From the NCBI RefSeq assembly GCF_046105845.1, contig NZ_CP151004.1: a DNA stretch of 64,000 nucleotides; one strand, written 5' to 3'. Shown here in pieces: positions 35,901 through 38,900 of the stretch (position 1 is its first letter; every line of letters begins with the position of its first letter). A program made the position numbers. The DNA is from Escherichia coli (GTDB lineage: Bacteria; Pseudomonadota; Gammaproteobacteria; Enterobacterales; Enterobacteriaceae).

Positions 35901-38900
35901 GACTATCTGTATACGATAGGGGTTAGTGCCAAATTTTAACGTTATATATACAATTGAAACCATTGGATAACAACAGTTGTGGCGATAGTGGGTGCTAACT
36001 TACTAAATAATAAATTTGGTGAATAATTGTCGAGTCATTCATTCCTGAACTAATGCATTTCATTCTGTTCTGATGGCATTTCATGCCGTTTTTCCCCAGG
36101 CATAAAGTGCACTTCGTTATGGTTGTCAGCAGAGATTTTTCCTTTTTATTACTGCAGGAATACTGCCATGACACCTTCAAATTATCAGCGTACCCGCTGG
36201 TTGACACTCATCGGTACTATCATTACCCAGTTTGCCCTTGGGTCGGTTTATACCTGGAGCCTGTTTAACGGCGCGCTTTCTGCCAAGCTGGATGCGCCGG
36301 TAAGCCAGGTCGCTTTCTCTTTCGGCTTGTTAAGTCTGGGGCTGGCAATTTCATCTTCTGTTGCGGGGAAATTACAGGAACGTTTTGGCGTTAAACGCGT
36401 CACTATGGCTTCCGGCATTTTGCTGGGATTAGGCTTCTTCCTGACAGCGCATTCTGACAACCTGATGATGCTGTGGTTAAGCGCCGGTGTGCTGGTCGGT
36501 CTGGCGGATGGCGCGGGTTACCTACTGACGCTCTCTAACTGCGTGAAGTGGTTCCCGGAGCGTAAAGGTCTGATCTCCGCGTTCGCTATCGGTTCTTATG
36601 GTCTGGGTAGCCTGGGTTTCAAATTTATCGACACGCAGCTGCTGGAAACGGTGGGTCTGGAAAAAACTTTTGTGATTTGGGGAGCGATTGCGCTGGTGAT
36701 GATTGTTTTCGGCGCAACGTTAATGAAAGACGCACCAAAACAGGAAGTGAAAACCAGCAATGGTGTGGTGGAGAAAGATTACACGCTGGCAGAGTCGATG
36801 CGTAAACCGCAGTACTGGATGTTAGCGGTAATGTTCCTGACTGCCTGCATGAGCGGCCTGTACGTGATTGGGGTAGCGAAAGATATCGCCCAAAGTCTGG
36901 CACACCTTGATGTGGTTTCCGCAGCCAATGCAGTCACTGTTATTTCCATCGCCAACCTTTCAGGTCGTCTGGTTCTGGGGATACTGTCTGACAAAATCGC
37001 CCGAATCCGTGTTATCACCATTGGTCAGGTGATTTCGCTGGTGGGTATGGCGGCCCTGCTGTTTGCACCATTGAATGCAGTGACGTTCTTTGCAGCGATT
37101 GCCTGCGTGGCGTTTAACTTTGGCGGCACCATTACCGTTTTCCCGTCACTGGTCAGTGAGTTCTTCGGCCTCAATAACCTGGCGAAAAACTACGGTGTGA
37201 TTTATCTCGGTTTCGGTATCGGCAGCATTTGTGGGTCGATTATCGCCTCACTGTTTGGCGGCTTCTATGTGACCTTCTACGTGATTTTCGCCCTGCTGAT
37301 TCTGTCACTGGCGCTCTCTACGACGATTCGTCAGCCAGAGCAGAAAGTATTGCGTGAGGCACATATTTAGAAATATTTATCTACTAAAACAACAAAAGGG
37401 GAGAGGCGTAAGTATCTCCCTTTTTGTATTTTTTGAGTGTAAATAATACAGTGTTATTGATAATTTGAATAAATTATTGGTTTTCATTTTTAATTTATAT
37501 GGTTTTATTCCTAAAAATAAAATTCTGTCTTTTTCTGAGCTAGTAACTTGTTGATTTTTCCGTATATTTAATATGATTCAAAAATTAATATTTAGTAAAA
37601 ACAATTTTATTTTTTGACGCCATTTGTATAATCTGCGCCCGTTGTATAAACAACATCAAGCATATTTATCTATATAAATGGAGTTATAAATGAAAAAGGT
37701 TCTGTTTGCCTTATCTGCGCTTGCGCTGACCTCTACTTCCGTATTCGCAGCTGATGCGGGCGACGGTACTATCAAATTTACCGGTGAGATTGTTGATGCC
37801 GCTTGTGTTGTGTCTCCGGACTCTCAAAAACAAGAAGTTGTTCTGGGCCAGGTGAACAAGTCTGTTTTTACTGCTATTGGTGATAAATCCACAGCAACGC
37901 CGTTCAAAATCAAACTGGAAAACTGTGATATCTCCTCTTTAAAAAATGTGGAAATCAGCTTTAACGGCGTTGGCGCTACAGGGAACGAGAAACTGGTTTC
38001 TGTAAGCACTGAACCAGGTGCTGCAAGTGGCGTAGGTATCGGTATTTATGATAACACCAATACCCTGGTTGACCTGAATTCTGGTAAATCTGCTACCGTT
38101 CTGAAAGAAGGCCAGACCGTTCTCTACTTCACCGCTAACTATGTCGCTACCGCCGATTCAGTAAGCACCGGTTACGGTAACGCCGAAGTCGACTTCAACC
38201 TGACTTACAATTAATCGCCCCTAACAGGACGATCATCTCTCAATGGCAACAGAGACTCTGTTGCCATTATTCACACCAATGACTCAGGGACCGAATCATG
38301 AAACGTATTAGCCTTGCCGTGCTGGCACTTTTAATGACCGCACAACAGTGTTTTGCTGGTGGCGTAGCCTTAAGTACGACGCGTGTTATTTATGATGGCG
38401 GCAAGAAAGAAGCGTCGCTGACCGTTGAAAATCATAATAAAAATGAAGAGTTTTTGATCCAGTCATGGATTGATGACGTGAATGGTAATAAAAAAACGCC
38501 GTTCATTATTACACCGCCATTATTCAAACTTGATCCCGATAAAAATAACGTCTTACGTATCGTCAATATTGAAGATACCTTACCTAAAGATCGTGAATCC
38601 GTTTACTGGATTAATGTAAAAGCGATTCCTGCGAAAAGTGCTGAAAATGAAAATAAAAACGTCTTACAGATAGCCGTTCGCACCCGTCTGAAGTTGTTCT
38701 ATCGTCCAAAAGGTTTGCCGGGAAGCAACCTCGAGGCAATGAAACAGTTACGTTTCCAGCGTCAAAATAACCAAATTGTGGTTAACAACGACTCCGCTTA
38801 TAACCTGACCTTTAATCAGTTTTCCGTTAATGGACAAAAGATTGAACGGGCGGGAATGGTTCTCGCAAAAGGGACGTTAAACATTAACCTTCCAGCCGGT

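What the first reader, a model, noticed from the sequence alone, without database searches (positions are those of the whole stretch)
37371..37689. Strongly AT-rich leader upstream of lpfA with a perfect TATAAT
Seen in sequence: the 320 bp between yhjX and lpfA are markedly AT-rich and contain ttgacgccatttgTATAATctg at about 37611-37629. The TTGACG hexamer is only 7 bp from the TATAAT, so it cannot be the matching -35; the promoter is probably an extended -10 or activator-dependent type. Inference: composition and position suggest a xenogeneic, H-NS-silenced control region, as is known for lpf in EHEC.
Basis: partly seen in the sequence, partly recalled or inferred. Interest (0 to 1): 0.25.

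Follow-up and report, generated by a model that had tools for sequence, protein, structure and literature searches.

The report
AT-rich lpf fimbrial operon control region
The 319 bases between yhjX and lpfA are the control region of the long polar fimbriae operon, a divergent allele of a region already studied in E. coli O157:H7, so the finding is real but mostly ordinary.

Summary
Window 37371-37689 is the yhjX-lpfA spacer, 23.8% G+C against 50.7% for the window, and the most AT-rich 319-bp stretch in the 64 kb.

A perfect TATAAT is not rare here: 58% of shuffles of the leader contain one. Conservation is the real evidence. The hexamer is invariant in nine Escherichia leaders and one metagenome contig. 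It is TATACT or TACACT at the same position in Enterobacter, Citrobacter and Salmonella.

TTGACG occurs only in this allele. There is no usable -35 and no canonical extended -10.

The whole leader lies inside the lpf island that K-12 lacks. H-NS silencing, with Ler relief, is published for the O157:H7 orthologue and is only inferred here.

Other parts are a yhjX terminator, an RcsB-half-site-like upstream block (TATTCCTA), an IHF-like site and a Shine-Dalgarno sequence. The block sits 120-123 bp from the -10 across genera. The distal half of this allele matches no complete E. coli genome.

Verdict: a new member of a known kind, low interest.

The parts
37365..43138 (+). lpf island (leader plus lpfABCDE). 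K-12 has an unrelated 96-bp filler here. The left edge falls after the yhjX codon CAT, so the last codon and stop of yhjX are island DNA.
   Evidence: Alignment with the K-12 yhjX-eptB spacer. Island G+C is 46.1% against 51.2% for the rest of the window.
37392..37427 (+). Intrinsic-terminator-like hairpin for yhjX (core GGGGAGA...TCTCCC) followed by TTTTTGTATTTTTTG.
   Evidence: RNA fold -21 kcal/mol, z = -5.6, 0 of 200 shuffles as stable. Other alleles carry a different hairpin plus T-run at the same place. The simple terminator scan did not call it.
37457..37475 (+). Two adjacent 8/10 matches to the H-NS motif tCGATAAATT (TTGATAATTT, TGAATAAATT). Two further 8/10 matches lie on the minus strand at 37374-37383 and 37663-37672.
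   Evidence: 4 sites against 1.45 +/- 1.19 in shuffles (P = 0.056), about 10 times the density of the whole window. Motif taken from PMC2094087.
37494..37521 (+). Block A, the best-conserved upstream element: TTTATATGGTTTTATTCCTAAAAATAA. Its core TATTCCTA is at 37506-37513, about -133 to -126 from the predicted start.
   Evidence: Conserved in 12 leaders from 4 genera. The core fits wwTTCykA in 11 of 12. [quoted passage not shown] The TTC-to--10 distance is 120-123 bp in 11 leaders. No conserved ORF covers it.
37544..37556 (-). IHF-like site: TAACTTGTTGATT, the reverse complement of WATCAANNNNTTR, about -95 to -83.
   Evidence: Exact core match here and at the aligned position in Salmonella and Citrobacter; 1-2 mismatches in the other E. 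coli alleles. The TGA is invariant in 12 leaders. An exact match occurs in 7% of shuffles. The consensus is from my own knowledge.
37580..37612 (+). A/T block over the UP-element and -35 positions (AAAAATTAATATTTAGTAAAAACAATTTTATTT). The conserved AATTTTAT is at 37603-37610, 16 bp before the -10.
   Evidence: Conserved run. The best -35 hexamer at 15-19 bp spacing scores only 3/6. The resemblance to an UP element is my inference.
37614..37619 (+). TTGACG, a consensus-like hexamer with no function assigned. It is private to this allele.
   Evidence: It is 7 bp from TATAAT. Absent from all other alleles. The 22-mer is absent from the JGI metagenome contigs.
37627..37632 (+). TATAAT, the predicted -10 hexamer of the lpfA promoter.
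   Evidence: Invariant in 9 Escherichia leaders and metagenome locus L024. TATACT or TACACT at the aligned position in Enterobacter, Citrobacter and Salmonella.
37633..37641 (+). G+C-rich stretch CTGCGCCCG between the -10 and the predicted transcription start (37637-37641, most likely about 37639).
   Evidence: Read directly from the sequence. All orthologues have a C/G-rich stretch after the -10. The start position is inferred from -10 geometry and has not been mapped.
37639..37689 (+). Predicted 5' untranslated region of about 50 nt, with a small 5' hairpin GUUGU-AUAA-ACAAC at 37641-37654.
   Evidence: Fold; the whole region is not more stable than shuffles (z = -0.11). No Rfam match at E <= 1. 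The -10-to-SD length varies from 52 to 74 nt among orthologues.
37680..37683 (+). Shine-Dalgarno GGAG, 6 nt before the lpfA ATG at 37690, inside the invariant TAAATGGAGTT.
   Evidence: Invariant in 13 leaders.

Best explanation
The segment is the cis-regulatory leader of the lpfABCDE operon, which encodes chaperone-usher long polar fimbriae.

Reading 5' to 3', it contains:
1. The intrinsic terminator of yhjX, which insulates lpf from upstream transcription.
2. About 200 bp of roughly 77% A+T DNA that serves as a platform for H-NS-type silencing. It holds two positionally conserved elements: block A (TATTCCTA core) at about -130 and an IHF-like site at about -89.
3. A sigma-70 promoter with a consensus -10 (TATAAT, 37627-37632) but no recognisable -35. 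It should therefore be weak on its own and depend on A/T-rich upstream contacts, an activator or an anti-silencer.
4. A start near 37639, an untranslated region of about 50 nt and a strong Shine-Dalgarno sequence.

Shown here: the composition, the island location, and the conservation and fixed spacing of the elements.

Inferred: that TATAAT is the working -10, the start site, H-NS occupancy (by homology of position and composition with the O157:H7 lpf1 region), and which proteins bind block A and the IHF-like site.
For: - Composition: lowest G+C in the 64 kb.
- Location: the leader lies inside the island missing from K-12.
- Conservation of the -10: invariant in Escherichia and locus L024; TATACT or TACACT in three other genera, although flanking sequence is only about 50% identical.
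- Fixed spacing: block A to the -10 is 120-123 bp, and block A to the IHF-like TGA is 45-47 bp. The -10-to-SD distance varies from 52 to 74 nt.
- All orthologous leaders are AT-rich, 23-36% G+C.
- H-NS-motif-like sites are about 10 times denser than in the window as a whole.
- Literature: H-NS silences and Ler de-silences O157:H7 lpf1, and H-NS covers a larger region than Ler at that promoter (PMC4288034, PMC3219716, PMC3897749, PMC5550750).
- Terminator fold: z = -5.6.
Against: - No transcription start is mapped for this or any allele in the material I could read. The two primary papers are not held, and the EDL933 start-site tables are truncated before this locus.
- TATAAT alone is expected by chance in 58% of shuffles.
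- The consensus promoter scan does not call this site, because no -35 fits; it calls only TTTATA-18-TAAAAT at 37494-37523.
- The H-NS motif excess over composition-matched shuffles is borderline (P = 0.056), and there is no helically phased A-tract signal (P = 0.32).
- This leader is only 45-51% identical to the O157 leader on which the H-NS and Ler experiments were done.
Confidence: 0.68

Rival explanations
1. The main promoter lies further upstream. The candidate is the consensus-scan hit TTTATA-18-TAAAAT at 37494-37523, with a start near 37530 and a leader of about 160 nt. On this reading block A is conserved because it is a promoter core, and the proximal TATAAT is a secondary promoter or a protein-binding site.
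For: It is the only sigma-70-like site the scan finds in 37200-37900, and it overlaps the most conserved block. From memory only, unverified: the O157:H7 studies reported more than one start site.
Against: The invariant bases of block A (TTC, then AA) fall in what would be the spacer, while the putative hexamers vary. Enterobacter would have a 12-13 bp spacer, and group-1 E. coli has TAAATA as its -35. The scan finds fewer sites here than in shuffles, 1 against 2.3 +/- 1.6.
Confidence: 0.13
2. The TATAAT is a chance product of AT-rich composition and has no promoter role. The region is simply spacer and silencer DNA.
For: A perfect TATAAT arises in 58% of dinucleotide shuffles of the leader.
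Against: It is retained at the aligned position in 9 Escherichia leaders and one distant metagenome locus, and as TATACT or TACACT in three other genera, within sequence that is otherwise about 50% identical.
Confidence: 0.05
3. It is an extended -10 promoter, needing no -35.
For: A TG directly precedes the hexamer (TTTGTATAAT), and no -35 is present.
Against: The TG occupies -14/-13, not the -15/-14 of the TGnTATAAT motif (motif from my own knowledge). E. whittamii and E. albertii have CGTATAAT, and Enterobacter and Salmonella lack TG altogether.
Confidence: 0.05
4. It is a phase-variation switch of the pap type (Dam/Lrp) or the fim type (invertible element). This could account for the phase-variable lpf expression that, from my own recollection, was reported in Salmonella.
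For: Fimbrial operons commonly phase-vary. A 12-nt perfect inverted repeat joins 37513-37524 and 37603-37614.
Against: There is no GATC in this leader and at most one in any orthologue. An inverted repeat of that length occurs in 33% of shuffles and is not conserved. No recombinase gene is adjacent.
Confidence: 0.04

Closest known systems
Regulatory region of the lpf1 operon (O-island 141) of E. coli O157:H7 (Torres 2007; Rojas-Lopez 2011, as cited in PMC4288034, PMC3219716, PMC5550750)
   Same: Same locus (yhjX-lpfA spacer), same operon and similar G+C (23.6% against 23.8%). The GTATAATC -10, block A (TATTCCTAAAAATAA), AATTTTAT, and the spacing between them are the same, and the Shine-Dalgarno sequence is identical.
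   Different: Only 45-51% identity outside those blocks. The O157 spacer is 343 bp against 319 bp and its predicted untranslated region is about 16 nt longer. O157 lacks TTGACG, and its lpfC is a pseudogene whereas it is intact here. Ler relief needs the LEE island, and whether this strain carries it is unknown.
lpf leaders of other E. coli lineages (O26/O111/O103/O104 type; the LF82/NRG857c adherent-invasive type, where bile salts and FhlA are reported to induce lpf, per PMC5357955)
   Same: The proximal 128 bp is 88-91% identical and the operon 92-95.5% identical.
   Different: The distal 130 bp is only about 50% identical to every one of them. No complete genome among 5426 has it. No sigma-54 promoter (GG-N10-GC) that FhlA would need is present on the + strand here, and none is conserved across the leaders.
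Salmonella enterica lpf upstream region
   Same: Same neighbourhood (tag-yhjY-lpfA). It shares block A (TATTCTTA), an exact IHF core at the aligned position, a -10-like hexamer at the same distance, and the same Shine-Dalgarno sequence.
   Different: Salmonella has no yhjX, a 496-bp spacer at 35.5% G+C, and TACACT rather than TATAAT.
H-NS-silenced promoters relieved by RcsB heteromers (bgl, leuO with BglJ-RcsB; PMC3950696)
   Same: An AT-rich silenced control region with a wwTTCykA element far upstream of the start. The bgl site is centred at -96, and its spacing is constrained.
   Different: No evidence links RcsB to lpf. A search of the held papers for lpfA together with RcsB turned up none among the titles and abstracts listed. 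The second half of a dimer site is not conserved; matches to the RcsAB box range from 9 to 12 of 14. The position near -130 is further upstream than the mapped sites.

Membership tests
Sigma-70 promoter with -10 and -35 elements | -10 hexamer close to TATAAT | tested here: met
   6/6 match at 37627-37632, conserved in orthologues.
Sigma-70 promoter with -10 and -35 elements | -35 hexamer close to TTGACA, 16-18 bp upstream of the -10 | tested here: not met
   The best hexamer at 15-19 bp spacing scores 3/6. TTGACG is only 7 bp away. The consensus scan does not call the site.
Sigma-70 promoter with -10 and -35 elements | Transcripts start 6-8 nt downstream of the -10 | not testable with these tools
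   No start-site data could be reached.
Extended -10 promoter | TG at -15/-14 (TGnTATAAT) | tested here: not met
   The sequence is TTTGTATAAT, so the TG is at -14/-13. It is not conserved: E. whittamii and E. albertii have CGTATAAT.
H-NS-silenced island control region | A+T content well above the genome average over 100 bp or more | tested here: met
   23.8% G+C against 50.7%; the lowest in the window.
H-NS-silenced island control region | Lies in strain-variable (accessory) DNA | tested here: met
   Inside the 5.8-kb segment replaced by a 96-bp filler in K-12. However, it is syntenic in several genera.
H-NS-silenced island control region | High-affinity H-NS motifs (tCGATAAATT) in excess of composition | tested here: inconclusive
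   4 sites at 8/10 or better against 1.45 +/- 1.19 in shuffles, P = 0.056.
H-NS-silenced island control region | Intrinsic curvature from helically phased A-tracts | tested here: not met
   15 A/T tracts of 4 or more, but no 10-11.5 bp periodicity beyond shuffles (P = 0.32). This is only a proxy; no full curvature model was run.
H-NS-silenced island control region | H-NS occupancy and de-repression in an hns mutant | not testable with these tools
   Reported for the O157:H7 orthologue only (PMC4288034, PMC5550750).
Ler-relieved promoters of LEE-positive E. coli | The genome encodes Ler | not tested
   The window covers one chromosomal neighbourhood only and was not scanned for ler.
Phase-variable fimbrial switch (pap type or fim type) | Paired GATC sites in Lrp-binding repeats, or an invertible segment with flanking inverted repeats and a recombinase gene | tested here: not met
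   0 GATC. The longest inverted repeat is not beyond chance (P = 0.33). No recombinase gene is nearby.
RcsB-dependent control element | RcsB half-site wwTTCykA (right half of TaAGaatatTCctA) | tested here: met
   TATTCCTA at 37506-37513; fits in 11 of 12 leaders. By my rough estimate, a single 8-mer match is expected about 0.3-0.6 times per leader by chance.
RcsB-dependent control element | A second half-site, or a partner half-site, and RcsB-dependent expression | tested here: inconclusive
   Left-half matches vary, 9-12 of 14 overall. Binding and genetics cannot be tested here.
IHF binding site | Core WATCAANNNNTTR | tested here: met
   Exact at 37544-37556 on the minus strand, and exact at the aligned position in Salmonella and Citrobacter. 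The chance of an exact match is 7% per shuffled leader. Other E. coli alleles have 1-2 mismatches.
Intrinsic (Rho-independent) terminator | G+C-rich hairpin followed by a U-run | tested here: met
   Hairpin 37392-37427, -21 kcal/mol, z = -5.6, followed by UUUUUGUAUUUUUU. The stricter pattern scan missed it.

The most novel reading that the evidence does not exclude
The lpf leader carries an ancient activation or anti-silencing module that does not depend on Ler. It consists of block A (TATTCCTA, an RcsB-type half-site) at about -130 and an IHF-type bend site at about -89. Both are held at fixed distance from a promoter that has only a -10. The module is conserved from Escherichia to Salmonella, Citrobacter and Enterobacter. 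An RcsB homomer or heteromer, or another factor that recognises TTCCTAA, would bind block A and be brought to the promoter by the bend. This would link envelope-stress or bile signals to long polar fimbriae in strains that lack LEE.
Probability: 0.2. Interest if true: 0.45.

Novelty: new member of a known kind. Interest (0 to 1): 0.2.

Why it matters
Long polar fimbriae help enterohaemorrhagic and adherent-invasive E. coli target Peyer's patches. Their expression is tightly repressed in culture. The published H-NS and Ler model comes from the O157:H7 allele only.

This window shows which parts of the control region are kept across alleles and genera. These are the -10, block A, the IHF-like site and their spacing. 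About 130 bp of the distal leader, by contrast, has been replaced.

This gives concrete bases to mutate when asking how strains without Ler switch lpf on. Beyond that, the region is an expected AT-rich fimbrial promoter.

Tried and rejected
- **Primary papers on the lpf1 promoter.** PMC1952049, PMC3067649, PMC2573367, PMC4139445 and PMC2650629 are not held. Published start sites and footprints could therefore not be compared. Only secondary statements were used.
- **EDL933 Cappable-seq start-site tables (PMC10469882).** They carry no gene names and the stored files are cut long before 4.54 Mb. Nothing was obtained.
- **H-NS ChIP supplements.** PMC4720273 has nothing for lpf. PMC1550270 has no supplement held.
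- **Exact-match scans of the JGI metagenome contigs.**
- **Rfam.** No family matched at E <= 1 in 37200-37900.
- **Structure in the untranslated region.** It is no more stable than shuffles.
- **Sigma-54 promoter for the reported FhlA control.** No conserved GG-N10-GC is present.
- **12-nt perfect inverted repeat 37513-24 / 37603-14.** It is not beyond chance and not conserved.
- **Shared motifs with the paralogous lpf2 leader of Sakai.** None was found.
- **A conserved small ORF over block A.** None exists.
- **K-12's 96-bp filler as an lpfE remnant.** There is no significant similarity.
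Full report

The window encodes yhjX at 36123-37370 (stop TAG at 37368-37370). It then encodes lpfA (37690-38214), lpfB, lpfC, lpfD and lpfE (to 43126), followed by eptB. The names follow RefSeq annotation of E. coli loci that match at 92-99% identity.

The spacer 37371-37689 is 319 bp and 23.8% G+C, against 50.7% for the window. It holds the most AT-rich 319-bp stretch in the 64 kb.

The quoted string is present at 37614-37635. TTGACG is at 37614-37619 and TATAAT at 37627-37632, with 7 bp between them.

A perfect TATAAT is not surprising in this composition. 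It appears on the + strand in 58% of dinucleotide-preserving shuffles of the leader.

**2. What shows that the TATAAT matters?**

I collected orthologous lpfA leaders from these sources:
- five further E. coli lineages: JNE151685, O26:H11 11368, LF82 and O170:H18 (identical to each other in the leader), CP053258, and O157:H7 Sakai;
- E. whittamii, Escherichia sp. E2748 and E. albertii;
- Salmonella enterica, a contig carrying a Citrobacter freundii-type LpfA, Enterobacter quasihormaechei and E. sichuanensis;
- more distant metagenome loci.

Outside a few blocks the leaders are only about 50% identical between groups. Even so, GTATAAT is invariant in all nine Escherichia leaders and in metagenome locus L024. 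The aligned hexamer is TATACT in Enterobacter and Citrobacter and TACACT in Salmonella.

In contrast, TTGACG is private to this allele. Other alleles read TTAACG, TTAGCA, ATAGCA or TCGTAT. The 22-mer was not found in the JGI metagenome contigs.

No hexamer at 15-19 bp upstream scores above 3/6 against TTGACA, and the consensus scan does not call the site. The TG abuts the hexamer at -14/-13, so it is not the TGn of an extended -10. It is CG in E. whittamii and E. albertii.

The promoter therefore has a consensus -10 and essentially no -35. The -35 and UP positions are occupied by a conserved A/T block (37580-37612, with AATTTTAT at 37603-37610). The -10 is followed by a G+C-rich stretch, CTGCGCCCG.

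From this geometry I place the start at about 37639. That gives an untranslated region of about 50 nt ending in an invariant TAAATGGAGTT Shine-Dalgarno block. This is an inference.

**3. Other parts of the leader**

- *yhjX terminator.* A hairpin at 37392-37427 (-21 kcal/mol, z = -5.6) followed by a U-run is the likely yhjX terminator. Other alleles have a different hairpin at the same place.
- *Block A.* This is the most conserved upstream element: 37494-37521, TTTATATGGTTTTATTCCTAAAAATAA. Its core TATTCCTA fits wwTTCykA in 11 of 12 leaders. [quoted passage not shown] It is also the right half of the RcsAB box TaAGaatatTCctA.
- *IHF-like site.* An exact match to the IHF core consensus lies at 37544-37556 on the minus strand. 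It is exact at the aligned position in Salmonella and Citrobacter and has 1-2 mismatches in the other E. coli alleles. An exact match arises in 7% of shuffles.
- *Spacing.* The distance from the TTC of block A to the -10 is 120-123 bp in 11 leaders. From TTC to the IHF-like TGA it is 45-47 bp. The -10-to-Shine-Dalgarno distance ranges from 52 to 74 nt.
- *The exception.* E. albertii has a 9-bp insertion that creates TTGCCT 16 bp upstream of TATAAT, a conventional -35.

Which proteins bind block A and the IHF-like site is unknown. A search of the held papers for lpfA together with RcsB turned up no link between them among the titles and abstracts listed.

**4. Is it foreign, H-NS-silenced DNA?**

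Alignment with K-12 shows that the sequences diverge after the yhjX codon CAT (37364|37365) and rejoin at 43138|43139. K-12 carries an unrelated 96-bp filler between those points. The whole leader therefore belongs to the lpf island, which is 46.1% G+C overall.

The island is old, however:
- The yhjX-lpfA adjacency is also found in E. whittamii, Escherichia sp. E2748 and two Enterobacter species. YhjX there is 90% identical and ends ...EAH, as in lpf-positive E. coli.
- Salmonella has yhjY-lpfA in the same neighbourhood.

The K-12 state is thus more likely a loss than the ancestral condition.

All orthologous leaders are AT-rich, at 23-36% G+C.

Matches to the H-NS motif tCGATAAATT (PMC2094087) are about 10 times denser than in the window as a whole. 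They are only borderline above composition-matched shuffles: 4 against 1.45 +/- 1.19, P = 0.056. A/T tracts show no helical phasing (P = 0.32).

Held papers state that H-NS binds and silences the O157:H7 lpf1 regulatory region and that Ler counteracts it. They also state that H-NS covers more DNA there than Ler does (PMC4288034, PMC3219716, PMC3897749, PMC5550750). In strain LF82, bile salts and FhlA are reported to induce lpf (PMC5357955).

For this allele, H-NS silencing is an inference from position and composition. Ler relief would also require the strain to carry LEE, which is unknown.

**5. What is unusual about this allele?**

The flanking yhjX is up to 99.4% identical to other E. coli. 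The operon is up to 95.5% identical, and the proximal 128 bp of the leader is 88-91% identical to the non-O157 E. coli alleles. The distal 130 bp (37431-37561) is only about 50% identical to every other allele.

No complete genome among 5426 has the distal half at megablast level. The best full-length match of 37300-37760 is 79.4%. By eye in the alignment, some stretches there look closer to the O157 and E. albertii leaders, though overall identity to O157 is no higher (0.45). The leader is therefore a mosaic, with block A and the IHF-like site preserved within the replaced part.

**6. Rivals**

- *An upstream promoter at block A.* This is not favoured, because the invariant bases fall in its would-be spacer.
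- *A chance TATAAT.* This is contradicted by conservation.
- *An extended -10.* The register is wrong and the TG is not conserved.
- *A phase switch.* There is no GATC, no significant inverted repeat and no recombinase gene.
- *A structured RNA element.* There is no Rfam match and no fold signal.

**7. Verdict**

It is wrong on the extended -10, and too simple on 'xenogeneic'.

This is a divergent allele of a control region already studied in O157:H7, so it is a new member of a known kind and of low interest. The conserved block A, IHF-like site and -10 architecture is the only lead worth an experiment.

Noticed in passing
window 37431-37561: The distal half of the leader is only about 50% identical to every other E. 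coli lpf allele examined. The adjacent yhjX is 97-100% identical in its last 30 bp, the proximal leader about 90%, and the operon up to 95.5%. No complete genome among 5426 carries this distal sequence. This indicates a local mosaic or replacement.
   Followed up: partly
window 37365 and 43138; L003 (K-12) 6477-6799: K-12 replaces the 5.8-kb lpf island with an unrelated 96-bp filler and so has a different YhjX C-terminus (...AHGSL* against ...AHI*). Enterobacter YhjX ends ...EAH, like lpf-positive strains, and yhjX-lpfA synteny spans genera. This suggests that K-12 lost lpf.
   Followed up: partly
L009 (E. albertii), about 40-50 bp upstream of its TATAAT: A 9-bp insertion (CCTATCTCC) lengthens the block A to -10 distance to 132 bp, roughly one helical turn. 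It creates TTGCCT 16 bp upstream of TATAAT, a conventional -35 that the other leaders lack.
   Followed up: partly
L007 and L008 (Enterobacter), about 49 nt upstream of the lpfA ATG: A second copy of the block A core (TATTCCTA / AATTCCTA, within ...TTCCTAAGGATGC) lies in the predicted untranslated region of the Enterobacter leaders. A degenerate copy occurs in Salmonella, and none in Escherichia.
   Followed up: no
window 39008-41539: lpfC (usher, 843 aa) is an intact reading frame here. In O157:H7 Sakai and EDL933 it is annotated as a pseudogene with an internal stop.
   Followed up: no
window 37618-37649: A direct repeat CGCCATTTGTATAA / CGCCCGTTGTATAA has 18-bp spacing. The second copy forms the small hairpin GUUGU-AUAA-ACAAC at the predicted 5' end of the transcript. 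It resembles TTGTATAAAT, which PMC2094087 lists as a potential H-NS site at nir. It is not conserved in O157.
   Followed up: partly
window 43345-51000: The flanking core genes (eptB, dppABCD) are at best 98.5% identical to any complete E. coli genome; the top hits include soil isolates. The source strain therefore has no close complete relative in that collection.
   Followed up: no
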